From an uncultured delta proteobacterium (GTDB taxonomy: Bacteria > Desulfobacterota > WTBG01 > CAIYCZ01), in assembly GCA_963803975.1 (NCBI GenBank), contig CAWDOY010000014.1, positions 96,001-160,000 of the forward strand: DNA of 64,000 nucleotides, in the 5' to 3' direction. The notes below the pieces were generated by a model. It made no database searches, was not told the origin of the DNA, and was given only the letters and a program-made list of their open reading frames with translations. The position numbers and the translations under genes are program-made. Positions 468 through 24,083 of the stretch are shown in pieces. Positions within the stretch are counted from its first letter, which is position 1; every line of letters begins with the position of its first letter.

Positions 468-469
468 GA

Positions 470-3152: not shown

Positions 3153-3308
3153 TAGATCCTTTATGACCGGAGAACGGGAACGGGTTCACGCCTCGTTGCC
3201 CGCGCCAGCAGAAAACTTTGACAGGTCCGTAGAAACTTGAAACAGAAAAGCACTTTATAATTACTGACAAAAAATTTCAAGGGGTTTCCCCTCTCGCGGG
3301 GCGCGAAA

Positions 3309-4413: not shown

Positions 4414-4420
4414 AAGGCCC

Positions 4421-6274: not shown

Positions 6275-6277
6275 ATT

Positions 6278-6835
6278 CTATGAAGCAGCTGTTTTAGCAG
6301 ACGAAGGTTGGAAAAAACCCCTGAAAAGATTAATTGCATTATTCTGCGACACGCTGTTTATTACATAATCGAGAAACAGCAGGACCACGGGAGCTACTGC
6401 GACCGTGAATGCCAGCTGTTTGGGAAGAATGTTTTTTAAGCTCGCGAGCAGGTGCGGATTCTTGTGAAATAACCAGCATAACATAAAGACCAGCCCCCCC
6501 TCAAGGATGCTGCCAAAAACAACCAGCAGTATCTGGAGATAAATGGAGCGAAGATCAAAAGCGTTTTTTAGCAGGTCGATGGAGACGAAGAAGAACAGAT
6601 ACACGAAAGCATACAGGCCAAAAGGGCCGCCGGAAAACACGGCACAGAAATAACCCAGCAGCGACACCAGGACTGCGCCCGCGCCCAGTTCCAGCTCCGG
6701 CCGGGTTCCCAGGTAAAGCACCAGAATCAAAACCAGATCCGGGCGAATGCCCTGCTGTGTAAAGGGCAGGAGCGGGTGTGCTTGAATACCTAAAAGAGCC
6801 ACACCGAGCAGAACATACAGGAGATATAAACGCAT
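6278..6835 (-). CDS. mreD: Rod shape-determining protein MreD
   Basis: Hydrophobic protein with RPDLVLILV motif between mreC and mrdA; ATG at 6835 has a GAGG RBS. Confidence 0.85.
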   Translation of the reverse strand: MRLYLLYVLLGVALLGIQAHPLLPFTQQGIRPDLVLILVLYLGTRPELELGAGAVLVSLLGYFCAVFSGGPFGLYAFVYLFFFVSIDLLKNAFDLRSIYLQILLVVFGSILEGGLVFMLCWLFHKNPHLLASLKNILPKQLAFTVAVAPVVLLFLDYVINSVSQNNAINLFRGFFQPSSAKTAAS

Positions 6836-6874
6836 CTCATCCTCACCTTGTGTGCGTTGAGAAAAAAACATCGG

Positions 6875-7687
6875 TTACGGTATCACCACGAACACCTCTT
6901 CCAGCTTAGAAAAATCAACAGCAGGCTTTATCTCGACCAGCTGAAAAAACCCCGGGCTGTTTCTTACCACATTCACCACGGCACCGACCACGATCCCCTT
7001 GGGAATTATCTCATCTAACCCGGAGGTTACAATAATATCTCCGTTTTGGAGGTCTTCGTTTTTTGAGACGAAGCGCAGCTCACAGCGCTCTTCAGTGCGT
7101 CCCTCTATGATACCCTTGGCACGGGAGCGCTGCACCAGGATATCAAGAGCACTATTACGGTCAATGATTAAGAGAACTTTTGCTGTCGTCTTCTGCGCTT
7201 CGAGAATTTTCCCCACAATCCCGCGCGCCGTCATCACCGCGGCTCCGCGCCGTATGCCGCTGTCTGTTCCCTTATCAATCATCAGGGTGCGAAACCAGCT
7301 CGAGGGGTCCCGGCCAATAATTTCCGCGGGAATAAAGTGGTACGGGAGTTTTTTTTTGAAACCGAGGAGCTCGCGCAGGCGGCTGTTTTCAAGGGCTGTT
7401 TCCTGCAGCAGCTGATTTTCACGCTGCAGGTCTGCGACCGCTTTTTGCAGCAGAACATTTTCGCTGCGCACGCTAACGAGATTGAAATAGCCCAGCCAGA
7501 GGCGATAGGCTTTGTTGAAGGCTATGGTAGAAAGCTTTAACGGCGGGGAAAGAACGGGTATGATTATGGCATCAAAAAGTCCCCCTCCTTCTCTTTTCTC
7601 GATATCCCGGGCCAGCAGCGTTAACGAGACCAGAAAAAGCACGGCAATAAGAATAACCCTTTTTCTTTTCAGAAGAAACTGCAGCAT
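6875..7687 (-). CDS. mreC: Rod shape-determining protein MreC
   Basis: TM helix, coiled coil ENSRLRELL, IDKG, VTSGL and LEEVFV motifs. Confidence 0.95.
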   Translation of the reverse strand: MLQFLLKRKRVILIAVLFLVSLTLLARDIEKREGGGLFDAIIIPVLSPPLKLSTIAFNKAYRLWLGYFNLVSVRSENVLLQKAVADLQRENQLLQETALENSRLRELLGFKKKLPYHFIPAEIIGRDPSSWFRTLMIDKGTDSGIRRGAAVMTARGIVGKILEAQKTTAKVLLIIDRNSALDILVQRSRAKGIIEGRTEERCELRFVSKNEDLQNGDIIVTSGLDEIIPKGIVVGAVVNVVRNSPGFFQLVEIKPAVDFSKLEEVFVVIP

Positions 7688-7706
7688 TGCTGACCCTGCC
7701 CCAGCC

Positions 7707-8825
<1,119 letters not shown>

Positions 8826-9020
8826 TTATATTAAAAGGAACTGATGTATATGAAAATCAATTATATGTTTTCGACTAATAGCAGACACGGTACAGAAGTG
8901 CAAGAAAATAATAAAATGCCTTGAAAAACTTAGCAGTTTTTACTAACATTGAAAGACTAACCGTTAACAGATTAATTAAAACAGTTTTGTATAGTGGTAT
9001 AACCGCGCGGAGGCACGAGC

Positions 9021-10934
9021 ATGTTAAGCTTTATGAGGAAAAATGCAAAGTCGTGGATTGTTAAAATCCTGTTCGTCATTATCATTCTGGTTTTTGTTTT
9101 CTTTTACGGATATTCTGACATGCGCCAGGGAAAAGAAACCGCACTTGCTTCAGTGGGAAAGAAAAAAATAACCATTGGCGAATACCAGGAGGCATATAAG
9201 AACATGCTCCAGTTTTACCGCAATATCTACCAGGGCCAGCTTACGGAAGAGATGATCCGGCAAATGGGGCTGAAGCAGAAAGCGCTGGAAAACCTGATTG
9301 AGCGCGAGATCCTCCTCCAGGAAGCCGGCAGGATGAAAATGCAGGCAACCGCTGAAGAGGTGCGAACGAACATTATGAAGACCCCGGCATTCCAGGAGAA
9401 TGGCAGCTTCAGCCAGCAGAATTATGAACGGACACTGCGCTATTATAACCTATCGACAGCTGATTTTGAAATGAACCAGGAGAAAGAGATAATCATAAAA
9501 AAGCTCGAAGACCTGGTAAAAAGCGCTGCCCGGTATTCTGACCAGGAACTGCGCAACCAGTTTCTCCTGGAAAACGAAAAGGCGACCATAGAGTACCTGG
9601 CGTTTAGTCCTGAGGCGATCAAGGAAAACCCTGCGGTGAGCCCCCAGGAGATAGAGAATTATTATAAGAAACATGCCGAGGAGTTTCGCCTGCCGGCAAT
9701 GGTTAAGGCGCAGTATATACTGTTTTCCCCCGAGAACTATGAAAACAAGGTGACGGTTGCGCCGGCAGAATTAAAAGAATATTATCAAATGGATACGGAG
9801 AGGTTTTCAGAACCAAAGAAGGTGAAGGCCCGGCACATACTTTTAAAAACCGGCAAAACCGACACCCCGGAAAAGGTAGCGGCAGTGAAAAAGCGGGCAG
9901 AGGAGCTTCTGCAGAAAATAAAAAAGGGTGAAGATTTTGCAAAGCTGGCAGAGAAGAATTCCGAGGACACCGGCTCTGCAGCAAAGGGCGGAGACCTGGG
10001 ATATTTCAAGAAGGGCGACATGGTAAAGCCGTTTGAAGAGGCGGCCTTTAGCCAGAAACCCGGCGAGGTGAGCAGCCCGGTTCAATCTACCTTCGGGTTT
10101 CATATCATCCGGGTTGATGACGTGAAAGAGGCGTATACCAAAACCTTTGATGAAGTTAAGGGGGTTATAGAAAAAGAGCTCAAGCAGGAGGCAGCTAAAA
10201 AGCTTGCCCGGGAAGAAGCACACCGGGCGTACAACCGGCTCTTTAAAAGTAAAGATATTGCCGGCTATGCAAAACAGAACGGGCTTAAAATAGAAGAGAC
10301 CGATTATTTCACCTCCGGCAGCGGCCCGGAAGACGCGACAGAAAAGAACGCTTTTTCTGAGGCAGCGTTTTCCATCAACGCCGGGGAGATAGCGCCGATT
10401 TTTGCGTTAGGCCCAAAATATGTTTTGCTAAAGCTGGAAGGGAAAAAAGCATCCCGCATTCCGCCGGTACAGGAAGTAACGGACGCGGTTAAAAAAATCC
10501 TGGAAAAGGAAAAGAAGACCGCGCTGGCAAAAGAGCAGGCAGAGAAACTGCTTGCCGGCCTGAAAAGCGGTAAAGAAGAGTGGGCAGCAGCCGCTAAAGC
10601 GAACAAACTGGAAATAAAAACGACTAAAGAGTTTACCCGCAGGGGTGATTTTATTCCGGAGATAGGGCCGGCGCGGCTGCTGAAAGAAGCGGCATTTACC
10701 TTGAGCGAGAAGAACCCGTATCCAGACAAAGTTTTTGAAACAGATAAGGGTCAGCTGCTTATCCGGTTAAAGGCGCGCCAGAAGCCGGGCGAGGAAGAAT
10801 TTCTGAAACAAAAAGAGCGGCTGCAAAAACAGCTGGTACAGATGAAGAAAGAGGAACTGTTTAATCAGTTTCTGGAAGGGCTGAAGACAAAGGCAGAAAT
10901 AAAGGTGGATAAGAAGCTGCTGGCTTCAGACTGA
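9021..10934 (+). CDS. ppiD: PpiD/SurA-N domain peptidyl-prolyl isomerase
   Basis: N-terminal TM, SurA-N region and parvulin domain (ARHIL, GGDLGYF, STFGFHII). Confidence 0.9.
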   Translation: MLSFMRKNAKSWIVKILFVIIILVFVFFYGYSDMRQGKETALASVGKKKITIGEYQEAYKNMLQFYRNIYQGQLTEEMIRQMGLKQKALENLIEREILLQEAGRMKMQATAEEVRTNIMKTPAFQENGSFSQQNYERTLRYYNLSTADFEMNQEKEIIIKKLEDLVKSAARYSDQELRNQFLLENEKATIEYLAFSPEAIKENPAVSPQEIENYYKKHAEEFRLPAMVKAQYILFSPENYENKVTVAPAELKEYYQMDTERFSEPKKVKARHILLKTGKTDTPEKVAAVKKRAEELLQKIKKGEDFAKLAEKNSEDTGSAAKGGDLGYFKKGDMVKPFEEAAFSQKPGEVSSPVQSTFGFHIIRVDDVKEAYTKTFDEVKGVIEKELKQEAAKKLAREEAHRAYNRLFKSKDIAGYAKQNGLKIEETDYFTSGSGPEDATEKNAFSEAAFSINAGEIAPIFALGPKYVLLKLEGKKASRIPPVQEVTDAVKKILEKEKKTALAKEQAEKLLAGLKSGKEEWAAAAKANKLEIKTTKEFTRRGDFIPEIGPARLLKEAAFTLSEKNPYPDKVFETDKGQLLIRLKARQKPGEEEFLKQKERLQKQLVQMKKEELFNQFLEGLKTKAEIKVDKKLLASD

Positions 10935-11080
10935 CAGGCTGTTGAAAAACACCCATCTGCTGCGTTGCGCTTATCCCTCGTCATTGCAGCGTACCGCGCA
11001 GTACGCCTCATTCCTCGTGATTGCGCGCGCCTTGCATCTGAATGTTTTTGACCAGCCCGAAACATTTTTTCAATAACCTG
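10935..11080. mobile_element. MITE-like palindromic repeat element
   Basis: Terminal IRs CAGGCTGTTGAAAAA / TTTTTCAATAACCTG (13/15 match), internal palindromes (GCGTAC...GTACGC), no transposase; starts right at the ppiD stop. Confidence 0.7.
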
Positions 11081-11126
11081 CTAATACAGCAGCTACAGTT
11101 CGCAGAGTCCGGAGAATGGCTGAATA

Positions 11127-11579
11127 ATGGCTGGTGGAGAGAACCCGGAGTTGGTTATCGATAAGGAAGGGACCTGGCTTTATAACGGACAGCCGATTGT
11201 AAACAAGGCTATTTATCTCTTCTTTAATCAGAACCTGGAATATAGCCCGGCGGGCGGATACCAGGTCCGGGTCGGCGCAGAAGTCTCCCCGGTTGCGGTG
11301 GAAGATACACCGTTTGTGGTTACGGACGTGGTTTTGGTTGAGCAGGGGGAGAGCTTTTTTAAAATTCATCTCAATGACGAAACAGAAGAGCCGCTTGATC
11401 TGGAATCGCTCTCGGTGGGAAAAGATAATGTGCTCTACTGCGCGGTAAAGAGCGGAAAGTTCAGTGCCCGCTTTCTACGGCCCAGCTATTACCGCCTGAC
11501 CGAGCACATGCAGCAGGAGGGAGAAGACCGGTTCTATATTCCCCTGAACGGGAGGAAGTATTATATAAACAGTGACTAG
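11127..11579 (+). CDS. DUF1285-like protein
   Basis: 'IDKEGTWLYNG', 'VEDTPFVV' and 'ARFLRPSYYRL' resemble DUF1285. Confidence 0.7.
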   Translation: MAGGENPELVIDKEGTWLYNGQPIVNKAIYLFFNQNLEYSPAGGYQVRVGAEVSPVAVEDTPFVVTDVVLVEQGESFFKIHLNDETEEPLDLESLSVGKDNVLYCAVKSGKFSARFLRPSYYRLTEHMQQEGEDRFYIPLNGRKYYINSD

Positions 11580-11596
11580 TGCGTGCAGCGACAGGC

Positions 11597-11728
11597 AGTG
11601 GAAAGTGGAAGGTGAAAAGTGAAATTTCCCATTCACCTATTCACCGACTCACCCATTCACCGCAATCCCCTCGCCCCCTGAACCCTTTTATATTCCTGTG
11701 TGCCTATTGCCTGCTGCCTGTTGCCTTT
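11597..11728. repeat. Patch of short-period tandem repeats (7- and 8-nt units, partly inverted)
   Basis: AGTGGAA/GGTGAAA x4, TCACCnAy x4, CCCCTnnn and TGCCTnn x4 between convergent stops. Confidence 0.75.
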
Positions 11729-11729
11729 T

Positions 11730-12547
11730 TTATTTCCCCAGCTCCCTTGACCTCTGCGTTGCCGCCTCCACCGCATCCATGACCAGCCCCTTAAAGCCCG
11801 CCTTTTTCAAGAACATGCAGGCCGCTTATGGTGGTGCCGCCCGGCGAGGTGACCTGCTCTTTCAGCTTTGTCGCTGATTCCTGTGTTTCCTTTACCAGCG
11901 TTGCCGCGCCATAGATTGTCTGGGCCGCAAGCTCTGCGGCAACAGCTCTTGTCAGCCCCACTTTCACCCCGGCATCAATTAATGCTTCGAGAAAGAGAAA
12001 GACATAGGCCGGGCCGCTGCCGCTAAGGCCCGTCACCGCATCCATGAGCTTTTCATCAACGAGCACGGTTTTTCCCAGCGCGGCAAATATTTTCTCCGCT
12101 GCAGCCAGGTCCTGGCTGGTTGCGCCGGGGCCGGAGCAGAGAGCGGTTGCGCTTTCAAGAACCCGCGCTGCAGTGTTCGGCATGGCACGTATTACGCGGC
12201 AGTTGCCGGAGAGAAGCCCTGCAATAGCATCGGTCTTAACGCCGGCTGCGATGGAAAGGAAGAGTTTTGTTTTGTCTGAAGCCGCCGCGCATTCTTTCAT
12301 GACCGCGGGCAGAACCTGCGGCTTTACCGCGATGATGATGACGGAAGAATCAGCGACCAGCTTTTTGTTGTCAGAGCAGGTCTTTATTTTGTAGGAGTCC
12401 TTAAGAAATTTCAGCCGCTGCGCGGTGACGTCAGAGACGGTAATCTGCTGACGGAGAAAAGACTTTTGCCTTGATAATGCCGCGGATGATGGCCTCACCC
12501 ATGGCCCCGCCGCCAAGAATGCCAAGCTTTACTTTCTTTAAATCCAT
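11730..12547 (-). CDS. proC: Pyrroline-5-carboxylate reductase (frameshifts near both ends, probably assembly errors)
   Basis: MDLKKVKLGILGGGAMG start with RBS; AVKPQ, RAMPN, SGSGPAY and VTSPGGTT motifs; tail ...AVEAATQRSRELGK lies in a shifted frame. Confidence 0.92.
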
Positions 12548-12565
12548 AACCACTCCCTCCTTTTA

Positions 12566-12604
12566 TGTCATTGCGAGTCCACCTTGAGTGGACGAAGCAA
12601 TCTC
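12566..12604. repeat. REP-like palindrome
   Basis: GTCATTGCGAG-TCCAC-CTTGA-GTGGA-CGAAGCAATCTC hairpin; degenerate partner GGAATGAC near 12646. Confidence 0.55.
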
Positions 12605-12820
12605 CTGTTATGATAAAGCCATTCACATTTTAGTGTGAGTTTATGGAATGACAAGGTCATTGTCAACTGGTTTGACAGGCTCCCACAAGCGAAATCCCCG
12701 TATTAAGCTAAAAATCTTGACAGCTTAGCCATTTACTTTATATTGAGAGAACAATATAAAGAAGAAGCATAAAAAACAATGTTATGACGCTCAACCAGCG
12801 CCAGGGAGATAGGAATCCAA

Positions 12821-15363
12821 GTGTCCGACAAGGAAGCCACAGCCCGTATCAAGATCAATAAGCTGCTCGAAGCGGCAGGCTGGCGTTTCTTTCCGCAGAG
12901 GAAGCGCGCCCGCCAACATCCGCCTTGAGCCCAGCGTGACGATCAAGTCATCCGATCTGGAAGCACTTGGCGAGAACTTCGAAAAGACGAGCAAGGGCTT
13001 CATCGACTTCCTGCTTTTAGACACCAAAGGCTTCCCGCTCATCGTCCTTGAGGCCAAGTCCGAGGACAAGAACCCGCTCGTGGGCAAGGAGCAGGCCCGC
13101 AAATACGCCAAGTCCCAGAACTGCCGCTTCGTCATCCTCTCCAACGGCAACCTGCACTACTTCTGGGATCTGGAGCGCGGCAACCCCTACCTCATTACGT
13201 CCTTCCCTACGCCGGACTCGGTGATCGGCTACCAGCAGGTCACGCCCAACCCGCAACGCCTCGTCGAGGACCAGGTCAACGACGACTACATCGTGCTGAC
13301 CCAGCGCCCGAACTACCAATCCGAAGCAGCGTGGAAGAGCGAGGCCGAGCGTCCCGGCTACATCCAGGCCAATAAACTGCGTTTCTTGCGGCCCTATCAG
13401 TTGAAGGCCATTCACGCCCTGCAACGGGCCGTGAAGGACGGCAAAGACCGCTTCCTGTTCGAGATGGCCACCGGCACCGGCAAGACTCTCACTGCCGCCG
13501 CCGTCATCAAGCTCTTCCTCCGTTCCGGCAATGCCCGGCGCGTGCTGTTTCTGGTGGATCGCCTCGAACTGGAGGATCAGGCCAGGAAGGCCTTCAAGGC
13601 GCTGCTGTCTGCGGACTTTCAGACGGTGATCTACAAGGAGAACCGTGACGACTGGCGGCGGGCGGAAATCGTTGTCACCACGGTGCAGTCGCTGCTCTTC
13701 AACAACAAGTACCAGCGGCTCTTCTCGCCGACTGATTTCGACCTGGTAATTTCCGACGAAGCCCACCGCTCCATCGGCGGCAACGCCCGCGCCGTCTTCG
13801 ACTACTTCATCGGCTACAAGCTCGGCCTCACCGCCACGCCCCGCGACTATCTCAGGCGGTTTGACAACACCAACCCTTCTACCCGCGACCCGCGCGAAGC
13901 CGAGCGCCGACTGCTGCTGGATACCTACCGCACCTTCGGCTGCGAGAACAGCCAGCCCACCTACCGCTATTCGCTGCTCGACGGCGTGAAGGAAGGCTTT
14001 CTGATCAACCCCACCGTGGTGGATGCCCGCACCGAGATCACCACCGAACTGCTTTCCGAAGAGGGCTTCGTCGTCTCGTTCACCGACGATACCGGCGAGG
14101 ATCAGCAGGAGGCCTTCAAGCAGCGGGAGTTCGAGAAGCGATTCTTTGCCAAGGCCACCAATGAGCTCTTCTGCAAGACCTTTCTGGAAAACGCCCTGCG
14201 CGATCCGGTCAGCGGGGAGATCGGCAAGTCCATCATCTTCGCGGTCAGCCAGAACCACGCCGCCAAGCTGGCGCAGATCCTCAACCAGATGGCCGACCGC
14301 ATGTTCCCCGGCAAGTACCAGTCCGACTTCGCCGTGCAGGTCACATCAACGATTCCCGACGCCCAGCAGTTCACCATCAACTTCACCAACAACAACCTGC
14401 TCGGTTCGGCCAACTTCCTGCCCGCTTACAAGACCAGCAAGGCGCGTGTCTGCGTTACGGTTGGCATGATGACCACAGGCTACGATTGCACCGACATTCT
14501 CAATCTCGGCATGTTCCGCCCGATTTTCTCGCCGACCGACTTCATCCAGATCAAGGGGCGCGGCACCCGCAAGCACAATTTCCTCGAACAGCTTTTCGAC
14601 GACAGCATCAAGGAAGGCGTGACGCAGCCGCAGAAGTCCGCATTCAAGCTCTTCGACTTCTTCGCCAACTGCGAGTACTTCGAGGAGGAGTTCAACTACG
14701 ACGAGGTGCTGAAGCTCCCCCGGCCTTCAAGCAAGGGTGCTGGCACAGGCGGAGGCATAGGCCCGGTGGTATTTGGCGGCACCTACGAGCACCTCGGCGC
14801 GGATATCCTCTCCTCGATCAAGGTGGCAGAGATCGGTAGCGAAGGCATGAAGATTGACCGCATGTTCTTCGAGAAATTCGAGGACACCGTGCGCGAGAAC
14901 GAGACGATCGCCGCCGCCGTCGAGTCAGGACAATGGGATCGCGTCATCGACTACGTGAACCGCGAGGTCTTCGACAAACCCGAGGAGTACTACACCCTCG
15001 ACAAGCTGCGCAAAGCCGCTGCCGTGGATCGCCGCCTGACCCTGCGGGAAATCCTGGAGAAGATCTTCGGCCTCATCCCGCGCTTCAAGTCCAAGGACGA
15101 ACTGCTGGAAGAGGAGTTCGCCAAGTTCGTCGCCGACGCCAAGCCCGACGAGGCTGGGGCCATCCCGGCTATCAAGAACTATTTCAAGGCGTACCTCACC
15201 AGCGATCAGGTGCGCCACATCATCGAGAGCCGCCACTTCACCGACCTGGCCACCAACCCGGTCTTTTCCACCCGCGACTTTCAGCGCCGTGCCGCAGAAG
15301 TACCGGACGCTGATCCCTGAATACGTCAAGGACTACGTCTCCTTGAACCAGTTCGCCGCATGA
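12821..15363 (+). CDS. hsdR: Type I restriction endonuclease subunit R (frameshifts near 12895 and 15282)
   Basis: N-terminus MSDKEATARIKIN from GTG 12821; D...LEAK nuclease motif, MATGTGKT, DEAH, TATP, QIKGRGTR; true C-terminus ...YVSLNQFAA in a shifted frame. Confidence 0.9.
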
Positions 15364-15376
15364 GAGAACGAATGGT

Positions 15377-16026
15377 ATGACCGCCAACGAACCGTTGATC
15401 ACCGAAGCATGGTGGCTACCGAAAGCTCAAGAGCTTTCAGGTGGCGCAGCTGATGTATGATGTGACGGTCCGTTTTTGCGACCGCTACATCGACAAGCGC
15501 AGCCGTACCCACGACCAGATGGTGCAGGCGGCGCGGTCGGGTGTGCAGAACATCGCCGAAGGGAGTCAGGCCTCGGGAACCTCGAAAAAGACCGAACTCA
15601 AACTCACCAACGTGGCGCGGGCCAGCCTGGAAGAGCTGCGGCTCGACTACGAGGATTTCCTGCGCCAGCGCGGCCTGCCGATCTGGGAGCGTGACGATCC
15701 TCGCCGGCAAGAATCTGATTGACCGCCGGTGCGCCACTGCCGATGAAGTGGCGCGTGGGTGCGGGAAGAGCATGATCGTGGACGGGGTGGACAAAGTGGA
15801 CCCAGTGGACAGAAAAGTCATCGTCCACAGTCCACCAGTCCACCTTCCCCGAGCTTGCCGCCAACGCCGCACTGGTGCTGCTGGCGGTCGCCTGCAGCCT
15901 GCTCGACCGCCAGCTCGCCGCCCAGGCAAAAGCGTTTGAAACCGAGGGCGGCTTCACCGAACGCCTCTACCGCGTTCGTTCGAAAAGCGCGTTCGCCCCG
16001 TCCACTTCGTCCACCAAGTCCACTAG
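15377..16026 (+). CDS. Four-helix-bundle protein with suffix domain (TIGR02436/TIGR04258-like), frameshifted
   Basis: KHGGYRKLKSFQ, DQMVQAARSGVQNIAEG, ARASLEELRLDYEDFL and FETEGGFTERLY segments; internal GTGGAC/GTCCAC repeats. Confidence 0.85.
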
Positions 16027-16040
16027 CACTGAGGTTTCTC

Positions 16041-18625
16041 ATGCTCGACACCGACACCAAACGCCGCATCGACACCGCCCGCGACATCCTCGTGGGCAAG
16101 GTGCCCGACCCCAAGAGCCAGGTCGAGCAGATCACCATCGCCCTGATCTACAAGTTCATGGACGACATGGACGCCGAGAGCGAGGAGTTCGGCGGCAAGC
16201 GCAAGTTCTTCGCCAAGGAGTTCGCCCGCTACGGCTGGGCCAAACTCATGCGCTCCGGCCTGGGCGGCCACGAGACCCTGAACCTCTACGCCGAGGCCAT
16301 TACCAAGATGCCGGAGAACCCCGGCATTCCGCCGCTCTTCCGCGACATCTTCAAGAACGCCTATCTGCCCTACCGCGACCCCGAAACGCTCAAGATGTTC
16401 CTCAAGGTCATTGACGAGTTCACCTACGACCACAGCGAACGCCTCGGCGACGCCTTCGAGTATCTGCTCTCCGTGCTCGGCTCCCAGGGCGACGCCGGGC
16501 AGTTCCGCACCCCGCGCCACATCATTGATTTCATGGTCGAGATCATCGACCCGAAGAAGACCGAGACCGTGCTCGATCCGGCCTGCGGCACCGCCGGATT
16601 CCTGATCTCGTCCTACAAGCACATCCTGCGAGCCAACAGCTTCAAGACATGACGTCCACATGGTAGCCAGTCCAATCCACCCTGTCCACCTGCAAACCCT
16701 TACCCCCGACGAGCGCGGCGAGGCTCGCTGCACAACTTCAAGGGCTACGACATCTCGCCCGACATGGTGCGCCTCTCGCTTGGTGAACCTGTATCTGCAC
16801 GGCTTCGCCGACCCGCATATCTACGAATACGATACCCTTGCCAGCCAGGACCGCTGGAACGATTACGCCGATGTCATCCTTGCCAATCCGCCCTTCATGT
16901 CGCCGAAGGGGGGTATCATGCCCCACAAACGCTTCTCGGTGCAGTCCAAGCGCAGCGAAGTGCTCTTTGTGGACTATATGGCCGAGCACCTCACACCCAA
17001 CGGCCGCGCCGGCATCATCGTGCCCGAAGGCATCATCTTCCAGAGCCAGACCGCCTACAAACAACTGCGCAAGATGCTGGTGGAGGAGTACCTCGTCGCC
17101 GTCGTCTCGCTGCCGGCGGGTGTGTTCAATCCCTATTCCGGCGTCAAGACCTCGATCCTGATCCTCGACAAGTCGCTGGCGAAGAAGACCAACACCATCG
17201 CCTTCTTCAAGGTCGAGAACGACGGCTTCGGCCTCGGCGCCCAGCGGCGCGAGATTGACAAGAACGACCTGCCCGCCGCTTTAGCCGGCAATTAAGAAGT
17301 ACTGAATTAGGACATTATGAATGGCGAGGATGTCCTGGCTCCTGACTTCACAATTCATCCTTCGGCCTGCATCATTGTGCCAAAGGAGAAGATCGCCGCG
17401 AACGGCGACTACAACCTGAGCGGGGAGCGGTATCGGGAGGGGGCGATGCAGCCATCTCGTTTCCGCTGTGTCTCCTTGGCGACATCGCAGACTATTCCGA
17501 GTCGAAAGCGGTGGAACTCCGAAGTCCGACGTAGAAGAGTACTGGAACGGCGGCATTCCCATGGGCGACGCTGGTCGATCTTCCGCAACAGATTTCATCA
17601 CTGAAATCACGTCGACGCAAGCGAACGTATCTCCGAGCGAGGTCTGCGCGAATCTTCAGCGAAGATGATCCCAGCGAACTCGGTCGATCGTCTCGACACG
17701 TGCAACTATTGGACGCATTGCCATCAATCGCGTTCCGATTGCTACGAATCAAGGATTCAAGAACGTCGTGATCGAAGACGTCGACACGGGCACTTCCTGA
17801 GTATGTCGCGCTTGCTACTGCACAGAGCTTGTGCCGACGATGGATGCATGGGCGACTGGCGGGCACATTCAACGAGATTTCAAAGTCGAAGTTCTGCGAA
17901 CTCCAAATCCCCCTGCCGCCGCTGGAGGTGCAGAAGGAGATCGTGGCGGAGATCGAGGGCTACCAGAAAGTCATCGACGGCGCCCGCGCCGTCCTCGACA
18001 ACTACCGCCCCCACATCCCCATCCACCCCGACTGGCCGATGGTGGAGTTGGCGAAGATCTGCACGAATCACTCAAGGCAAGCTCACGCCGCTCGAAGGCG
18101 ATCCGATTACGTGGAAGGCTACGATCCGTTCTATGGGTGAGACATTCGTCGATTACAGACGTCAATGGATCAGCCTTGAATCTGACGTCATCGCAAGAAG
18201 GTCGAACGAGTATGCCGACTGGCTCGGCAAAAGCGAGCATTGCTAATCATTGCTCGTCAGTGGTGCATCGGCAGGCTATCTGCGATTGTGGCAATCGACG
18301 CGCGCATTCAACGGTTTACTGACGGCATTCAGACTATAATGAGATCGATCAATCTGACGATTCTTGATTCCTACTTCTTCAAATGCTCGATTCGACGAAT
18401 TGATCGGAGAATAAGTCGAGTGCGAGCAGCCATGCAAGCTACTCAGCAATCGATCATGAAGGAAGTCTCGAAATCCCCCTTCCACCCCTCGCCACCCAGC
18501 AAGCCATCGTCGCCGAGATCGAAGCCGAGCAGGCGCTGGTCGCCGCCAACCGCGAACTGATCGCCCGCTTCGAGAAGAAGATCCAGGCCACCCTCGCCCG
18601 CGTCTGGGGGGAGGATGAAGGATGA
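16041..18625 (+). CDS. hsdM: Fused type I methyltransferase-specificity subunit (HsdM-HsdS), many indels
   Basis: GQFRTP, DPACGT and NPPF motifs, then HsdS conserved regions IPLPPLEVQKEIVAEIE and QAIVAEIEAEQALV...ARVWGE with two TRDs. Confidence 0.85.
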
Positions 18626-18689
18626 GGGATGAATTATGAATGATGAATAAAGAATAAAAAAGGAAGAAGGATGAATTGTGAATGATGAA
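18613..18689. repeat. 11-unit heptamer array (nnATGAA-type) upstream of a four-helix-bundle gene
   Basis: GGATGAA GGATGAG GGATGAA TTATGAA TGATGAA TAAAGAA TAAAAAA GGAAGAA GGATGAA TTGTGAA TGATGAA. Confidence 0.9.
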
Positions 18690-19055
18690 AGGAAGAACCA
18701 GGAGCCGAAGGATTTGCAGATTCGGACGAAGGAATTTGCGTTACGGGTGATTCGGATGTATTCCGCATTACCAAAGTCAACCGAAGCGCAGGTGTTGGGC
18801 AAACAGGTCCTACGTTCCGGCACATCCGTTGGCGCCAATTACCGCGAGGCCAATCGGGCGCGTTCAAAACCGGAGTTCATCGCCAAGATCGGGGACTGCC
18901 TCAAGGAACTCGACGAAACCGCCTATTGGTTTGAGCTGCTGGCCGAGTCGTCGATTGTACCCAATGCGAGACTTGCCGATCTGCGTGATGAATGCGATCA
19001 ACTCTTGGCAATCTTCACCACCATCTCAAAGAAGACGAAGGCCAATGCTTCATAA
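18678..19055 (+). CDS. Four-helix-bundle protein (TIGR02436 / 23S IVP / Avd-like fold)
   Basis: RTKEFALRVI, QVLRSGTSVGANYREA and ELDETAYWFELL motifs. Confidence 0.9.
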   Translation: MNDERKNQEPKDLQIRTKEFALRVIRMYSALPKSTEAQVLGKQVLRSGTSVGANYREANRARSKPEFIAKIGDCLKELDETAYWFELLAESSIVPNARLADLRDECDQLLAIFTTISKKTKANAS

Positions 19056-19083
19056 TTCAACCTTCATCATTCATGCTTTCCCC
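19049..19083. repeat. Inverted heptamer array (TTCATnn) at the four-helix-bundle gene stop
   Basis: TTCATAA TTCAACC TTCATCA TTCATGC TTTCCCC, complementary to 18613-18689. Confidence 0.85.
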
Positions 19084-19680: not shown

Positions 19681-20067
19681 GTGTGGGGAATAAACTATCG
19701 TAGTCTGCCTAAGCGCCCATCTTTATCGCTCACCGAAGAAAGACGCCTCATAGCTAAAGCGAAGAGAGGATATAAAGCAGAAACCGAAGAGCTCGTCCTG
19801 CGCTATGTTGGCTTTATAATCTTTCGCATCCACAAGAAGGCCTTTCCATCCTATGCAGCCCGCTTTGGTGAAGAGATTCTTGCCCAAGCGGTGTTTATTT
19901 TGTACGACAAAATTAAGACCTATAACCTTCGCTACAGGGATAAGAATGGCGATTTAAAGCCGGTCAGGTTTTCCTCATATATCTGGAAGAGGATCGATGG
20001 GTTCATTCTGGATTCTTTGAAAGAAGAACTGGCAAGGGAAAGGCGTCAAGTAAGCCTTGACTGGTGA
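19681..20067 (+). CDS. Stand-alone sigma-70 region 1.2/2-like protein
   Basis: LSLTEERRLIAKAKRG...EELVLRY and RFSSYIWKRIDGFILD resemble sigma regions 1.2-2.4; no region 4. Confidence 0.55.
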   Translation: MWGINYRSLPKRPSLSLTEERRLIAKAKRGYKAETEELVLRYVGFIIFRIHKKAFPSYAARFGEEILAQAVFILYDKIKTYNLRYRDKNGDLKPVRFSSYIWKRIDGFILDSLKEELARERRQVSLDW

Positions 20068-20109: not shown

Positions 20110-20138
20110 TTGACCGCTTCACCCAGGATGGCTATACT
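20110..20138 (+). promoter_or_regulatory. Sigma70 promoter of mazEF
   Basis: TTGACC-17 nt-TATACT, then AGGAGG RBS. Confidence 0.7.
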
Positions 20139-20164: not shown

Positions 20165-20413
20165 ATGCTTGCAAAAATTCAAAAATGGGGAAATAGCCAG
20201 GGACTTCGTCTTGCGAAGAATCTGCTCGCAGATTCACACCTCGGTGTCGGGGATGAAGTGGATATTAGCGTAAAAGACGGCACGATCATCGTTGCCCCGG
20301 CAAAAAGGATGCGCGGGCGGCATAATCTTAAGGATCTTGTGGCGGGTATTCCTAAAAACCACCAAACAGGCGAATTTGAATGGGGGGAACCTGTCGGCAA
20401 GGAGGTTTGGTAG
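20165..20413 (+). CDS. mazE: AbrB/MazE antitoxin
   Basis: KIQKWGNSQGLRL N-terminus and EWGEPVGKEVW C-terminus. Confidence 0.92.
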   Translation: MLAKIQKWGNSQGLRLAKNLLADSHLGVGDEVDISVKDGTIIVAPAKRMRGRHNLKDLVAGIPKNHQTGEFEWGEPVGKEVW

Positions 20414-20749
20414 ATGGCCGCATATATTCCCGGGCAAGGGGATATCATCGCAATCACCTTTGATCCACAGTCTGGTCATGAACAGAAAGGACGGCGCCCT
20501 GCTTTTGTTGTCAGCAAGGACCTGTTCAACAGAAGCACCGGTTTGGCTATGGTGTGCCCAATTACAAAAACAGATCGGGGGTTTCCCTTTCACGTACCTA
20601 TCCCGGAAGGCAGTAAACTGACGGGCTTCATTATGGTAGAGCAAGTTAAATCGGTCGATTTCCGTGCTCGTCAGGCTAAGCGCATTGAACACGGCAACGA
20701 TGAGTTGCTATCAGAGGTGCTCGCCATATTAGACGCCTGTATCTACTAA
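20414..20749 (+). CDS. mazF: PemK/MazF endoribonuclease toxin
   Basis: FDPQSGHEQKGRRPAFVVS, CPIT and EQVKSVD motifs. Confidence 0.93.
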   Translation: MAAYIPGQGDIIAITFDPQSGHEQKGRRPAFVVSKDLFNRSTGLAMVCPITKTDRGFPFHVPIPEGSKLTGFIMVEQVKSVDFRARQAKRIEHGNDELLSEVLAILDACIY

Positions 20750-20845
20750 CCAGCCAACCTGTCGCTTCATGGGAAATCCGGAAACACCTTACTGGTTTTA
20801 ATTGACAAGGCTGTTCTGTTGTATAAACAAAACACCTTCAACCCT

Positions 20846-20911
20846 CTCCCCCGCCAGATCATAGGTAAGCCCGCTGGTAATTTTCACCTTCACAAATGAC
20901 CCGGCCGCAGC
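20846..20911 (-). repeat. Direct repeat R1: copy of the rimO 3' end
   Basis: Matches 22738-22802; a 37-nt core (20874-20910) is identical; reads AAGSFVKVKITSGLTYDLAGE on the minus strand. Confidence 0.95.
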
Positions 20912-20981
20912 GCACCCCTTTTTAATATACAGAACCCCGTTAAGATCAGAGACCTGGAATCATCCAAAGAAATAACTTCTC

Positions 20982-21010
20982 TTGACGCCCGTGCGTCATT
21001 GGCGTATAGT
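20982..21010 (+). promoter_or_regulatory. Sigma70 promoter with overlapping palindromic operator
   Basis: TTGACG-17 nt-TATAGT; TGACGC-CCGT-GCGTCA palindrome; ATG at 21017 lies about at the expected TSS (possibly leaderless). Confidence 0.7.
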
Positions 21011-21016
21011 TTAAAT

Positions 21017-21331
21017 ATGTTGTTTATTGAAACCCCCGTATTCACTAAAGAAATCCAGAGGCTGATTACAGATGATGAATACAAGAAGCTGCAACAGGAT
21101 CTAATGCTGCGGCCCGCAGCCGGGAGAATTATAAAAGGAAGCAGGGGTTTGCGAAAAATTCGCTGGCAGCTTCCTGGAGAAGGCAAAAGAGGCGGATTGC
21201 GCGTAATTTATTATTGGGATCCCCCAGAGATTATATATATGCTGTTTCCATATAAAAAAACCGAGCAGGAGGATTTGACACCTGCTCAAGTGAAGATACT
21301 AAAAAAAATGGTCAAGGAGTGTTTGTCATGA
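21017..21331 (+). CDS. RelE/HigB-family toxin
   Basis: FIETPVF, GLRKIRW and GKRGGLRVIYYW motifs; toxin-first organisation. Confidence 0.9.
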   Translation: MLFIETPVFTKEIQRLITDDEYKKLQQDLMLRPAAGRIIKGSRGLRKIRWQLPGEGKRGGLRVIYYWDPPEIIYMLFPYKKTEQEDLTPAQVKILKKMVKECLS

Positions 21332-21618
21332 AAGAGAAGGCGTTTACAAAACTGTTAGCAAGTATTAAAGAGGCCGGGCAGATTAGGGCGGGCCGTAAAC
21401 AGCCAGGCAGAATTTTTAGAATAGACCCTCCGAGCATTAAAGCTGTGCGAAGGAAGCTGCATCTTTCACAAAGTGAATTTGCTCTTATGATTGGTGTCAG
21501 CACCAGCACCTTGCAGAACTGGGAACAGGGCCGGCGAGAGCCGGATGGTCCGGCGAAGGCTTTATTAAAAGTTGCCTCTCAAAACCCCGAAGCTGTTATG
21601 GAAGCACTGCATTCCTAA
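21328..21618 (+). CDS. HigA/NadS-like XRE HTH antitoxin
   Basis: LSQSEFALMIGVSTSTLQNWEQGRREPDGPA; ATGA overlap with the toxin. Confidence 0.9.
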   Translation: MKEKAFTKLLASIKEAGQIRAGRKQPGRIFRIDPPSIKAVRRKLHLSQSEFALMIGVSTSTLQNWEQGRREPDGPAKALLKVASQNPEAVMEALHS

Positions 21619-21627
21619 TAAAACATA

Positions 21628-21672
21628 CGCAGGTCAGGAAAAGAAGAGGTAGCGTTATATGAAGGCGAGTGA
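21628..21672 (+). pseudogene. C-terminal remnant of a BrnT-like toxin
   Basis: Reads RRSGKEEVALYEGE*, overlapping the antitoxin start as in BrnT-BrnA pairs; the rest of the gene is absent. Confidence 0.6.
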
Positions 21673-21883
21673 ATTTGACAAAAAGTTCAATGAGGGCCGG
21701 GATATTTCCAAACACCTGGACATTGCAAAAGCGAAACGGCAAGGACGTGAACAAAAAAGAGTCAATGTGGATTTTCCTCTGTGGATGATTCAGTTATTGG
21801 ATAAAGAAGCAAGGCGTTTGGGTGTTCCGCGACAGTCCATCATAAAGGTGTGGGTAGCCGAGCGTCTTGAAAAAGCCTCTTAA
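21659..21883 (+). CDS. BrnA-like CopG/RHH antitoxin (orphan)
   Basis: MKASEFDKKF...KRVNVDFPLWMI..LDKEA.RLGV.RQSIIKVW. Confidence 0.85.
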   Translation: MKASEFDKKFNEGRDISKHLDIAKAKRQGREQKRVNVDFPLWMIQLLDKEARRLGVPRQSIIKVWVAERLEKAS

Positions 21884-21909
21884 TTTTAAAACAAAACTTC
21901 TCTTCAGAT

Positions 21910-21977
21910 AATCTCTCCCGCCAGGTCATAGGTAAGTCCACTGGTAATTTTCACCTTCACAAATGACCCGGCCGCAG
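21910..21977 (-). repeat. Direct repeat R2: copy of the rimO 3' end
   Basis: 37-nt core 21941-21977 identical to 22765-22801; reads ...TSGLTYDLAGEII* on the minus strand. Confidence 0.95.
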
Positions 21978-21999
21978 AGCTTCATATAGCTGAAAAGCC

Positions 22000-22028
22000 T
22001 TGCTTCACAAGCAAGATGACAATATAAT
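22000..22028 (+). promoter_or_regulatory. Sigma70 promoter of the nucleotidyltransferase cassette
   Basis: TTGCTT-17 nt-TATAAT. Confidence 0.55.
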
Positions 22029-22072
22029 AGAAAAAAACGAATTCAAACTTCAGGAGCACCTCGCATAGAGAT

Positions 22073-22271
22073 ATGCCCCGTCTGGATAAAACGCAACTTA
22101 CTATATCTTCCCTTGATGAATTTACGGAAGAGAAACAATATTGGCTATCCCGGGAGCAAGGCTGACCGCTTGAATGCAATCGAGATTAACCGCAGGATGA
22201 TTTATGGCACAGATCGAACTGCAGCCAGACTTCAAAGAATTCTTGAAACTGCTGAACTCTCATTGCGTTGA
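22073..22271 (+). CDS. Small partner protein of the nucleotidyltransferase (one frameshift)
   Basis: MPRLDKT...EEKQYWLSR/SKADRLNAIEINRRMIYG...RLQRILE; overlaps the NTase start. Confidence 0.55.
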
Positions 22272-22663
22272 AGTATCTTGTCGTTGGCGGATATGCTGTG
22301 GGGTATTATGGCTATCCGCGGGCCACTGGCGACATGGATATTTGGATCGCAGTAAGTGAAGTAAATGCCGAAAAGACCGCGCAGGCTACTTGCGTGAGTT
22401 TGGCATGCCGGAGAAAGCAGGCGAACTTAAAGATTTATTCACTCGAAACAGGACAAGATAATTCGAATGGGTGTTCCCCCTGTCCGGATCGAAGTAATAA
22501 CCAGGAGCCTCTGGTGTAAACTTTGAAGAATGCTATTCGCGACGAGAGGTAATAGACATAGACGACATACCGGTGAATTTCATTTCGCTCGAGGATCTAA
22601 GAGCCAACAAGCAGACCTGCGGCAGGTATAAGGATCTGGAGGATTTAAAACATCTCGCCATAA
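22204..22663 (+). CDS. DNA pol-beta-superfamily nucleotidyltransferase (TA-associated), several indels
   Basis: DFKEFLKLLN, YLVVGGYAV..YGYPRATGDMDIW and NK...GR.KDLEDL segments across frames. Confidence 0.75.
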
Positions 22664-22697
22664 CAATCGAGTCAACCCGGGCCGGCAATTCCGCTGC
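22658..22697 (+). other. 5' half of an attC-like site
   Basis: CCATAAC(AA) core overlapping the probable stop, then ...CCGGCAATTCCGCTGC, truncated before the 3' arm. Confidence 0.45.
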
Positions 22698-22724
22698 AAA
22701 AAAAGATTTACTTTTAAGCTATTC

Positions 22725-24083
22725 TCATTCAACAATCTCTCCCACCAGATCATAGGTAAGTCCGCTGGTAATTTTCACCTTCACAAATGACCCGGCCGCA
22801 GCACGACCTTCTTTTATATAGACCATCCCATCCACCTCCGGCGCCTGGAACACTGCCCTGCCCTGCAGCGCAAAGCCCTTTTTCTGCGACGGGCCTTCAA
22901 CCAGCACTTCTATTTGTTGTCCTGTCCGTGCGCGGTTTTTCTTGCGCGAGATTTTTGCCTGCAGGCTCATGATGGCGTGATAGCGCTCTTCTTTAATTTT
23001 CTCCGGAACCTTGGGCAAGAGTTTTGACGCAGGGGTTCCTTCCTCGTCCCGGTAGCGAAAAACCCCCAGGTGCTCAAATTCAAATTCAGCAACAAATTTT
23101 AAGAGGGATGAGAAGTCCCGCTTTGTCTCCCCGGGGAACCCGACCATAAAGGTGGTGCGCAGGGAAATGTCCGGCACCTTCTCCCGCAGGGCGTAGAGAA
23201 GCTTTTCAATGCGCTGCCCGGTTATCCTCCGGCCCATGCGCTTCAGAACCGGGTCGCTTATGTGCTGCAGGGGAAGATCGAGATAGCTGCAGATTTTCTG
23301 TTCTGCGGCAAGCAGGGAAATTAATGCATCAGTGATTGTCAGGGGATGGCAGTACAGAAGGCGCAGCCAGGTTATATCGGGAATGCGCACGAGCTTTTTT
23401 AACAGCGCGGCCAAATCGTCTTTTTGCCCGCGCTCCAGACCATACCGGGTTGTGTCCTGGGCAATGAGATTGATTTCCTTTACGCCCATTGCCGCAAGGT
23501 TTTTAACTTCCGCGACGATTGAGCGGGGCGTGCGGCTTACATACGGCCCGCGGATTTTGGGAATAGTGCAGTAGGTGCAGCAATGAGAGCAGCCCTCGGC
23601 AATTTTTACATACGCGGTGTAGCGGGGCGTTGCAAGAATGCGGGGCGTAGCAGGGTTTAAAAGATACGTTGCATGATCAGTAAAAATTTTTGCTTTTTGT
23701 TGTCCAGCTTCCAGTTTTTTTATGTAGCGGGCAATGTGCTGAAATTCTCCAGTGCCGATAAAAAGATCAACTTCCGGCAGCTCCTGCACAAGGCTCTCTT
23801 TATATCTCTGGGGCAGGCAGCCGCACACAACGAGATATTGGCAGGCGCCTCGTTTCTTCTCCTCGGCCAGAGATAGAATGGTTTCTATGGCCTCCCTGGT
23901 TGCCTCTTCAATAAAAGCGCAGGTGTTTACTATAATAATGTCTGCAGCTTTTCTGTCCGGAGTCAGCACATGGCCGGCCTGTACCAGAACTCCCTGGATG
24001 ACTTCGCTGTCGACCAGGTTTTTCGCGCATCCCAGGCTCACCAGATAAACGGAGCGGCTCGCGAGAGCAGGGTTTAATTCCAC
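22725..24083 (-). CDS. rimO: Ribosomal protein S12 methylthiotransferase RimO
   Basis: SLGCAKNLVDSE, KIAEGCSHCCTYC, APEVDG and C-terminal TRAM domain ending YDLVG. Confidence 0.96.
   Translation of the reverse strand: MELNPALASRSVYLVSLGCAKNLVDSEVIQGVLVQAGHVLTPDRKAADIIIVNTCAFIEEATREAIETILSLAEEKKRGACQYLVVCGCLPQRYKESLVQELPEVDLFIGTGEFQHIARYIKKLEAGQQKAKIFTDHATYLLNPATPRILATPRYTAYVKIAEGCSHCCTYCTIPKIRGPYVSRTPRSIVAEVKNLAAMGVKEINLIAQDTTRYGLERGQKDDLAALLKKLVRIPDITWLRLLYCHPLTITDALISLLAAEQKICSYLDLPLQHISDPVLKRMGRRITGQRIEKLLYALREKVPDISLRTTFMVGFPGETKRDFSSLLKFVAEFEFEHLGVFRYRDEEGTPASKLLPKVPEKIKEERYHAIMSLQAKISRKKNRARTGQQIEVLVEGPSQKKGFALQGRAVFQAPEVDGMVYIKEGRAAAGSFVKVKITSGLTYDLVGEIVE

What the first reader, a model, noticed from the sequence alone, without database searches (positions are those of the whole stretch)
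20846..22802. Integrase-free array of TA cassettes delimited by allelic copies of the rimO 3' end
Seen: the last ~66 nt of rimO occur three times in direct orientation. A 37-nt core is identical at 20874, 21941 and 22765 (spacings 1067 and 824 bp), and all copies lose similarity at almost the same point (...GGCCGCAG). Between copies sit compact modules with their own promoters, antisense to rimO: RelE-HigA plus an orphan BrnA, and a small protein plus nucleotidyltransferase. The copies differ mainly by synonymous third-position changes (GGA/GGG, GAT/GAC, AGC/AGT) plus V>A, and end in different C-termini (GEIVE*, GEII*, GERVE...). Inference: each copy was once a functional rimO tail, and ~1-kb circles carrying a replacement tail integrated serially, growing an integron-like array off a housekeeping gene. 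No recombinase is encoded in the window, so it would act in trans or via homologous recombination.
Basis: partly seen in the sequence, partly recalled or inferred. Interest (0 to 1): 0.82.

Follow-up and report, generated by a model that had tools for sequence, protein, structure and literature searches.

The report
Shuffled toxin-antitoxin array behind rimO
In an uncultured sediment bacterium, spare copies of the last codons of the housekeeping gene rimO separate small toxin-antitoxin modules whose content and order differ between relatives, likely because ordinary homologous recombination, with no integrase, keeps adding modules that bring their own replacement gene end.

Summary
The repeats are real (exact 37-nt core at 20874, 21941, 22765). 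Relatives show a variable array: extra rimO tails in 2 other genomes of the family and 2 metagenome contigs, 8 different upstream/downstream pairings among 14 tails, and two modules in reversed order between the window and its genus-mate. The window's R2 is the tail that ends rimO itself in four other loci. The fixed att core is not supported. Copies are about 22-39, 67-75, 125-135 and 150 nt long. A four-base allele block reassorts with both flanks. The genome's two full tyrosine recombinases are XerC and XerD; recA, comEC and dprA are present. Three unrelated genes of this genome carry the same downstream tail copy. Best reading (0.6): homology-driven 3'-end displacement, the kind described as 'insertion with long target duplication' and as rhs C-terminal displacement, here on a housekeeping gene with toxin-antitoxin cargo. 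Circles were not testable. A 17-bp inverted repeat that coincides with the ends of R2 is unexplained. The scan has noted integrase-free gene-tail arrays at other genes in other genomes before. New variant of a known kind; interest 0.5.

The parts
22725..24083 (-). rimO, intact, 452 aa; anchor gene; its last ~75-135 nt are the repeat
   Evidence: TIGR01125 487 bits
22204..22662 (+). nucleotidyltransferase-like gene, frameshifted in the window (likely assembly indels); end approximate
   Evidence: 74% DNA identity to an intact 159-aa G003 gene with weak DUF6036/DUF2204 hits; extra bases absent from other contigs
22073..22271 (+). small gene (MPRLDK..., 67 aa intact in L031), no family hit; frameshifted in the window
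21978..22040 (+). promoter-bearing arm next to R2 (TATAAT at 22023-22028, weak -35 at 22000; read by eye, not listed by the scan); the same arm precedes a ParE module in L053
   Evidence: sequence; alignment of arms
21905..21977 (-). R2: displaced rimO tail ending GEII*, 64/67 identical over 21911-21977; its ends form a 14/17 inverted repeat
21659..21883 (+). orphan BrnA antitoxin
   Evidence: NF047399 118 bits, cut-off 60
21626..21658 (+). last ~35 nt of brnT, joined to the HigA end; marks a deletion that fused two modules
   Evidence: match to L031 brnT end and overlap of L055 matches at 21626-21636
21319..21618 (+). HigA-like HTH antitoxin
   Evidence: PF01381, PF15731; NF041265
20999..21331 (+). 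RelE-family toxin
   Evidence: PF06296 27.1 bits, cut-off 27
20982..21010 (+). sigma70-like promoter TTGACG-17-TATAGT of the RelE-HigA module
   Evidence: conserved in L055 and G002
20837..20959 (-). R1: displaced rimO tail, near-identical over 20846-20911 (63/66), degenerate but in frame to ~20959 (29/48)
20165..20749 (+). MazE-MazF pair with promoter at 20110-20138; distal module behind the G-x-VEGVLF tail in the window, L053 and L055
   Evidence: PF04014, PF02452
19681..20067 (+). unnamed 128-aa gene (homologue has a faint sigma-factor hit); its 5' part is itself duplicated in L054 and L055
12550..22724 (.). whole variable interval between proC and rimO (10.2 kb here), including frameshifted type I restriction-modification genes

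Best explanation
The repeats are old rimO ends pushed downstream, likely by homologous recombination with DNA from relatives that carries the end of rimO followed by a different small module. Step 1 (inferred): a fragment anchored by homology in rimO is joined at its other end, by a rare illegitimate joint or by circularisation and one crossover, to a point inside the resident rimO tail; rimO is restored by the incoming end and the old end is left behind the new module, at whatever length the joint gave. Step 2 (shown as pattern, inferred as process): once a module is bracketed by two tails, RecA-type crossovers between tails, or between a tail and rimO, would insert, excise and reorder modules, with the crossover anywhere in the shared stretch. 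Step 3 (shown): secondary deletions fuse modules and remove toxins while antitoxins stay (orphan BrnA here; HigA without RelE in L055 and L057). Toxin-antitoxin pairs likely accumulate because they are small, carry their own promoter and resist loss. Uptake is likely by natural transformation (comEC, dprA, recA present; competence untested). Whether the intermediate is a circle or linear DNA is open.
For: Variable arrays: L031 (G001) rimO-BrnA-BrnT-copy-small gene-copy; L053 BrnT-copy-ParE module-copy-MazEF; L055 rimO-BrnA-DUF6933-HigA-copy-MazEF; L054, L057 and G002 with other neighbours. 14 tails show 8 of 20 possible upstream/downstream pairings. BrnA lies before the small gene in L031 and behind it in the window. 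Copy lengths differ: ~67-75, ~125-135, ~150 nt, and 22 and 39 nt in G002. A block of four substitutions (-23, -18, -17, -16 from the TYD codon) shows all four gametes with the upstream arm and with the downstream module, so exchange occurred on both sides of it. The long copy in L053 is 46/48 identical to modern rimO over -93..-46 while the same-arm copy in L031 is 39/48. The three most diverged long copies show a synonymous excess (P 0.005, 0.02, 0.02, uncorrected, of 7 tests), as expected of once-functional foreign alleles. No candidate integrase: PF00589 gives 3 hits (XerC, XerD, one 41-aa fragment), PF07508, PF00239 and PF02371 none; no integrase remnant in 11 loci, 72.9 kb. recA, comEC, dprA present. 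Of 3265 long ORFs, 4 have a free tail-only copy downstream and 0 upstream; at the hydrolase, G001 has the same AbrB-PIN module with no tail copy and its homology ends exactly at the copy's junction; at the HAD gene G001 and G003 are empty sites. Experimental precedent: 109-950-bp duplications of the lacZ end by single crossover in E. coli (PMC3240628, passages).
Against: Near-identity to rimO begins at the same point (-46/-45) in R1 and R2, and G002's copy is deleted from about that point; a preferred breakpoint is what a site-specific enzyme would give. R2's ends coincide with a 14/17 inverted repeat (z -4.8; 3 of 1500 gene ends reach 14). The 22- and 39-nt copies of G002 are short for RecA (general knowledge). 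rimO is a reported island target in Acidithiobacillus (PMC10322971). The genome is a 98% complete assembly that may lack mobile elements. Mosaic alleles could come in part from chimeric metagenome contigs. The four short or recent copies give no synonymous signal (P 0.13-0.70). No recombination event was observed directly.
Confidence: 0.6

Rival explanations
1. The modules are decayed remnants (CIME-like) of integrase-bearing islands that entered the rimO end one after another by site-specific recombination and were trimmed to their addiction modules; homologous recombination only retouched the repeats later.
For: Tandem CIMEs of 1.2-13 kb at 3' ends of housekeeping genes are documented (PMC7563491, passages). 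rimO hosts a validated island in A. ferrooxidans, with no integrase listed in the table (PMC10322971). Shared breakpoint at -46/-45. A type I RM region lies further down the interval.
Against: No integrase or fragment in 11 loci; modules sit directly against rimO with no element in between; no tail match in viral contigs (the 1 hit has no DNA match to the tail); extra tails at E<=0.05 in 2 of 42 class genomes (G002's short copies were missed by this search); four copy lengths; same pattern at three unrelated genes.
Confidence: 0.2
2. A dedicated recombinase acting in trans (encoded elsewhere or on a visiting element) recognises the 37-67-nt core, perhaps as a single-stranded hairpin, and captures small circles as an integron does.
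For: R2 folds on the coding strand at -14.7 kcal/mol, z -4.15 to -4.8, arms at the exact ends of the repeat; the L031 copy of the same type has 13/17, z -2.3. One promoter arm serves two different cargoes. A GTTRRRY word sits at the end of rimO. Y1/HUH transposases exist in the genome, 8 matches, none on this contig.
Against: 14 of 16 tails have no significant hairpin (z above -1.4) and neither do the three other tail-duplicated genes. No RYYYAAC or GTTRRRY box in R1 or R2. No IntI. No dif likeness (best 9-10 of 15). Crossovers are not at one site.
Confidence: 0.1
3. The copies arose by local tandem duplication inside one chromosome, followed by deletion and replacement of the duplicated genes.
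For: Direct repeats in tandem; partial duplication of a neighbouring gene in L054 and L055.
Against: The intervals hold unrelated genes; the tail variants are the functional ends of rimO in other strains; long copies show synonymous excess; module order differs between genomes.
Confidence: 0.05
4. The array is an assembly artefact that strings together strain haplotypes at a repeat.
For: The window has many single-base errors in this region; no public contig spans the whole stretch; the junction of R2's arm to BrnA is seen only in the window.
Against: Two internal copies on one contig in G001 and in L053, one in L055; a 442-nt unitig with two copies; a 748-nt unitig spans the RelE-HigA-BrnA fusion; the copies differ in sequence.
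Confidence: 0.05

Closest known systems
Insertion with long target duplication (Furuta, Abe, Kobayashi 2010, PMC2853133; passages and sections 14, 15, 18 read)
   Same: Insert flanked by long, variable, imperfect direct repeats, no mobile-element gene, repeats often at a stop codon so the target gene stays intact, mostly in competent species.
   Different: Described for single restriction-modification inserts; here serial, reordered modules of toxin-antitoxin genes, and no nuclease in the modules to supply a break.
C-terminal displacement at rhs loci (Jackson et al. 2009, PMC2935791; abstract and passages read)
   Different: At rhs the new tip changes the protein and is the selected cargo; here the tip is nearly neutral, the anchor is a housekeeping gene and the cargo lies antisense with its own promoter.
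T6SS effector-immunity arrays of Vibrio cholerae (Kirchberger et al. 2017, PMC5361080; abstract and passages read)
   Same: Integron-like growth without integrase, homology-facilitated illegitimate recombination proposed, toxins lost while protective genes stay.
   Different: Co-oriented effector-immunity pairs in a secretion locus; no housekeeping-gene tail repeats.
CIMEs in tandem accretion at 3' ends of rpsI, rpmG, fda, rplL (PMC7563491; passages read)
   Same: Integrase-free cargo units of about 1 kb in tandem at the 3' end of a housekeeping gene.
   Different: They derive from ICEs/IMEs and keep att sites; no such element was found at this locus.
rimO-integrated island of Acidithiobacillus ferrooxidans (PMC10322971; passages and tables read)
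   Same: Same target gene, direct repeat of rimO, no integrase listed.
   Different: 53-165-kb conjugative island; position of the repeat in rimO not seen in the passages.
Integrons and CALINs (definition recalled)
   Same: Ordered array of small modules with the newest likely next to a fixed anchor; self-promoted TA modules.
   Different: No IntI, no attC boxes, repeats are coding alleles of the anchor gene.

Membership tests
Insertion with long target duplication | Direct repeats longer than 30 bp, variable in length, matching a single target copy | tested here: met
   67-150-nt copies; G002 copies 22 and 39 nt
Insertion with long target duplication | Insert under 20 kb with no integrase or transposase | tested here: met
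   0.4-1.1-kb units
Insertion with long target duplication | Empty site in a related genome | tested here: met
   rimO followed directly by BrnA in L031, L051, L055, L056 is the empty site for the first module
Insertion with long target duplication | Restriction-modification genes inside the insert (criterion of the 2010 survey) | tested here: not met
   modules hold TA and small genes; the type I RM genes lie outside the repeats
rhs-type C-terminal displacement | Displaced 3' ends of variable length downstream of an intact gene, same strand | tested here: met
rhs-type C-terminal displacement | A displaced end is the attached end in other strains | tested here: met
   GEII*-BrnA displaced in the window, attached in four loci; GEIVE*-small gene attached in the window and L057, displaced in L031
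rhs-type C-terminal displacement | Tip encodes a variable toxin domain fused to the anchor protein | tested here: not met
   tips are the same TRAM-domain end with 2-5 variable terminal residues
rhs-type C-terminal displacement | Circular intermediates | not testable with these tools
   only assembled contigs were served; a circle junction cannot be told from a chromosomal repeat
Integron / CALIN | IntI integrase in the locus or genome | tested here: not met
   3 PF00589 hits: XerC, XerD, one fragment
Integron / CALIN | attC sites (RYYYAAC ... GTTRRRY hairpin) between cassettes | tested here: not met
   no box in R1 or R2; hairpin in 2 of 16 tails only
CIME / ICE accretion | A related integrase-bearing element at the same site in some strain | tested here: inconclusive
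   none in 11 loci or in viral contigs; few genomes of the family exist
CIME / ICE accretion | One fixed crossover point shared by all att sites | tested here: not met
   four gametes on both sides of the -23..-16 block; but a shared -46 boundary exists
Xer/dif modules | dif-like sites at module ends | tested here: not met
   best 9-10 of 15 consensus positions; a dif candidate lies on C3 (consensus recalled)

The most novel reading that the evidence does not exclude
The rimO tail is a population-wide, integrase-free cassette platform: tail-flanked TA modules circulate as small circles or transforming fragments, always enter next to rimO, and use a latent 17-bp hairpin at the tail as a preferred, possibly enzyme-recognised, recombination site; the same principle works at several genes of this genome and would be a general route by which solitary TA pairs move without any mobile element.
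Probability: 0.2. Interest if true: 0.8.

Novelty: new variant of a known kind. Interest (0 to 1): 0.5.

Why it matters
Chromosomal toxin-antitoxin pairs often appear and vanish with no transposase or integrase beside them, and the mechanism of 'insertion with long target duplication' has been open since it was described. This locus gives attached and displaced states of the same gene ends, reversed module order and mosaic repeats in one small region, plus three more cases in the same genome. That turns the question into a simple test: is a 70-150-nt gene tail plus RecA enough to build and reorder an array? It also warns that a duplicated gene end is not by itself proof of an integrase.

Tried and rejected
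Site-specific recombinases in the genome: PF00589, PF07508, PF00239, PF02371; only XerC/XerD and a fragment. G001's two other integrase contigs carry no rimO tail. Xer/dif: rejected. attC: rejected. Phage attP with the tail: 0 matches in two pattern scans, 1 weak protein hit without DNA match. Wider distribution: of 401 phylum genomes, 380 had a rimO-tail match; 15 with more than one match were re-examined, and only G343 had an adjacent second copy (265 nt apart, not followed up); G030's second match is weak and 25 kb away. The profile misses copies under ~40 nt, as G002 shows, so this is 'not found in those searched'. L052 (1 of 7 metagenome loci) was dropped as a 25-nt chance match. Circles: no raw reads were served; depth tables were not used. 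The promoter scan found 8 sites against 4.1 +/- 1.9 expected, and no terminator excess. Literature searches for this arrangement with TA cargo listed no paper whose title or abstract start describes it; subscription papers are not covered and no supplements were read.
Full report
Observation. The window lies on contig C14 of a 4.25-Mb, 98% complete genome; related records are titled as uncultured delta proteobacteria and the runs laid are sediment metagenomes. rimO (22725-24083, minus strand) is intact. Its end recurs twice downstream, spacing 824 and 1067, with an exact 37-nt three-way core and nowhere else in the genome. R2 matches rimO at 64/67. R1 matches at 63/66 and then continues in frame but degenerate for another 48 nt (29/48) before falling to background (14/50). 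Between the copies lie plus-strand genes: a small gene and a frameshifted nucleotidyltransferase-like gene; BrnA; HigA-like and RelE; beyond R1, MazEF. Two sigma70-like promoters were found by the scan, a third by eye.

Relatives. A pattern scan of metagenomes gave 7 loci, 6 of them this locus (L052 dropped). With G001 (same genus), G002 and G003 (same family) the maps, read from rimO outwards, are: window, rimO-NTase-small gene-R2-BrnA-HigA-RelE-R1-MazEF; L031 (G001), rimO-BrnA-BrnT-copy-small gene-copy-other gene; L053, BrnT-copy-ParE pair-copy-MazEF-proC (contig starts in brnT); L055, rimO-BrnA-DUF6933-HigA-copy-MazEF; L057, rimO-small gene-DUF6933-HigA; L054, rimO-DUF6933-dipeptidase, no copy; L051 and L056, rimO-BrnA (short contigs); G002, rimO-DUF6933-HigA on one contig and two short copies (22 and 39 nt) around a Cache gene on the proC contig, adjacency not shown; G003, no copy. 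Each module travels with its own last codons: GEII* with BrnA, GEIVE* with the small gene, GEIVET* with ParE, G-x-VEGVLF with the MazF side. So R2 with BrnA is the real rimO end in four loci, and the window's present end is a displaced copy in L031. BrnA and the small gene are in opposite order in the window and L031. Fourteen tails give 8 of 20 possible pairings of four upstream and five downstream types. Unitigs of four runs add at least three more downstream neighbours and a unit of 326 letters between two copies. The R1-R2 interval is a fusion: brnT is cut to ~35 nt and DUF6933 is gone; an independent 748-nt unitig covers this fusion.

Is the crossover fixed? For: near-identity starts at -46/-45 (counted from the TYD codon) in R1 and R2, and G002's copy lacks the stretch from about there. 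R2's ends form a 14/17 inverted repeat (z -4.15 and -4.8; 3 of 1500 gene ends reach 14). Against: copies start at about -110, -93, -46 and -9 or later. A block of four substitutions shows all four gametes with both the upstream arm and the downstream module. The L053 long copy is 46/48 identical to modern rimO over -93..-46 while its counterpart in L031 is 39/48. Fourteen of 16 tails have no significant hairpin. Contig chimeras could explain part of the mosaic; depth-matched unitigs seem to carry the block with both arm types, which is my inference from the tables. Three long copies show a synonymous excess (P 0.005, 0.02, 0.02 uncorrected); four copies are uninformative.

Enzymes. The genome has three PF00589 matches, XerC, XerD (a partial ORF, best hit TIGR02225, under the cut-off) and a 41-aa fragment, and no serine recombinase, resolvase or IS110 match. 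Eight Y1 transposase matches lie on other contigs. No recombinase family appears among the window ORFs scanned (ORFs of 1-12900 were read only). Four integrase queries found no remnant in 11 loci, 72.9 kb (best E 0.23). The tails are not dif-like and have no attC boxes. recA, comEC and dprA are present with open frames. The assembly may lack mobile DNA.

Not only rimO. Among 3265 long ORFs, after removal of paralogues and dispersed repeats, four have a free tail-only copy downstream on the same strand and none upstream; the same filter gave 6 free mid-gene and 4 free head pieces. The other three are an alpha/beta hydrolase (68 nt, around an AbrB-PIN pair), a HAD phosphatase (194 nt plus ~100 nt of downstream DNA, around 4.4 kb) and a 1302-aa gene (48 plus ~110 nt, around an efflux-type operon; label by eye). 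G001 has hydrolase-AbrB-PIN with no tail copy, and its homology stops at the base where the copy begins; G001 and G003 have the HAD gene without insert. This is what a donor-like state and empty sites would look like, though a later loss in G001 is not excluded. Extra rimO tails were found in 2 of 42 class genomes by profile and, of 15 multi-match genomes from a 401-genome phylum sample, adjacent in one only.

Mechanism. Shown: allelic tails, attached and displaced states, reassortment, reorder, loss of toxins with retention of antitoxins. Inferred: a first joint inside the resident tail, then RecA-type exchange among tails. A linear fragment rimO-module-tail can pair with the rimO body and with the resident tail and so insert the module next to rimO; a circle with one crossover gives the same product. 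These data cannot separate the two. I put 0.6 on this, 0.2 on decayed integrase islands, 0.1 on a dedicated trans recombinase, 0.05 each on local duplication and artefact.

Comparison. It works like 'insertion with long target duplication' (PMC2853133; passages and sections 14, 15, 18) and like rhs C-terminal displacement, for which recombination with circles of variable core length was proposed (PMC2935791; passages), and like the V. cholerae immunity arrays (PMC5361080; passages). Variable gene-end duplications by single crossover were obtained in E. coli (PMC3240628; three passages). It is not an integron and no CIME parent was found (PMC7563491; passages). rimO is a reported island site in Acidithiobacillus (PMC10322971; passages). 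Six searches listed no paper on a TA array built on a housekeeping-gene tail; I saw listings only for most of them, and no supplements. The scan's own notes hold similar arrays at other genes in other genomes (49 findings by words, 8 shown; none with all the words for rimO); these are unchecked notes and not evidence.

Verdict. Real, variable, integrase-free as far as can be seen; a new variant of a known kind. Interest 0.5: the layout has precedents, but the set of attached, displaced, reordered and mosaic states makes a long-open mechanism testable. The hairpin at R2 and the shared -46 boundary remain unexplained.

Noticed in passing
G000:C3:31654-34122 (L058): Alpha/beta hydrolase, AbrB-PIN pair, 68-nt copy of the hydrolase end, then two nucleotidyltransferase genes; G001 has the pair without the copy.
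   Followed up: partly
G000:C1:91305-96714 (L059): HAD phosphatase with a 297-nt, 86% copy of its end and downstream DNA 4.4 kb further on; G001 and G003 lack the insert.
   Followed up: partly
G000:C47:57010-63755 (L060): 159-nt repeat (48 nt of a 1302-aa gene's end plus downstream DNA) brackets a 6.5-kb efflux-type operon next to xerC.
   Followed up: no
window 19681-20067; L054, L055: Unnamed gene with a faint sigma-factor likeness; its 5' part is duplicated upstream in two related loci, the mirror image of the tail copies.
   Followed up: partly
window 21911-21977: The ends of R2 form a 14/17 inverted repeat (z about -4.5); 13/17 in the matching G001 copy, background level in the other 14 tails.
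   Followed up: partly
window 21978-22040; L031; L053: The same promoter arm is followed by the small gene in two loci and by a ParE pair in a third; one unitig joins it to the end of the 19681-20067 gene.
   Followed up: partly
window 18604-19083: Four-helix-bundle (23S rRNA IVP family) gene inside inverted arrays of an ATGA/TCAT-rich word; a second IVP-like ORF at 15441-15722 lies within the RM genes.
   Followed up: no
window 12790-18560: Type I restriction-modification genes of higher GC (0.56-0.60) with many frameshifts; absent from the same interval in L053 and G003.
   Followed up: no
G000:C3:237618-242252: Several housekeeping genes, including xerD, are split, in line with indel errors in this assembly.
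   Followed up: no
G000:C3, minus strand, 137803 from the contig end: dif-like 26-mer, a candidate chromosomal dif site.
   Followed up: no
G343:C19:22486-22897: Two rimO-tail matches 265 nt apart in a distant genome of the phylum.
   Followed up: no
G003:C18:2020-2611 (L069): Intact small gene plus nucleotidyltransferase pair at an unrelated site, with no flanking repeat found.
   Followed up: partly
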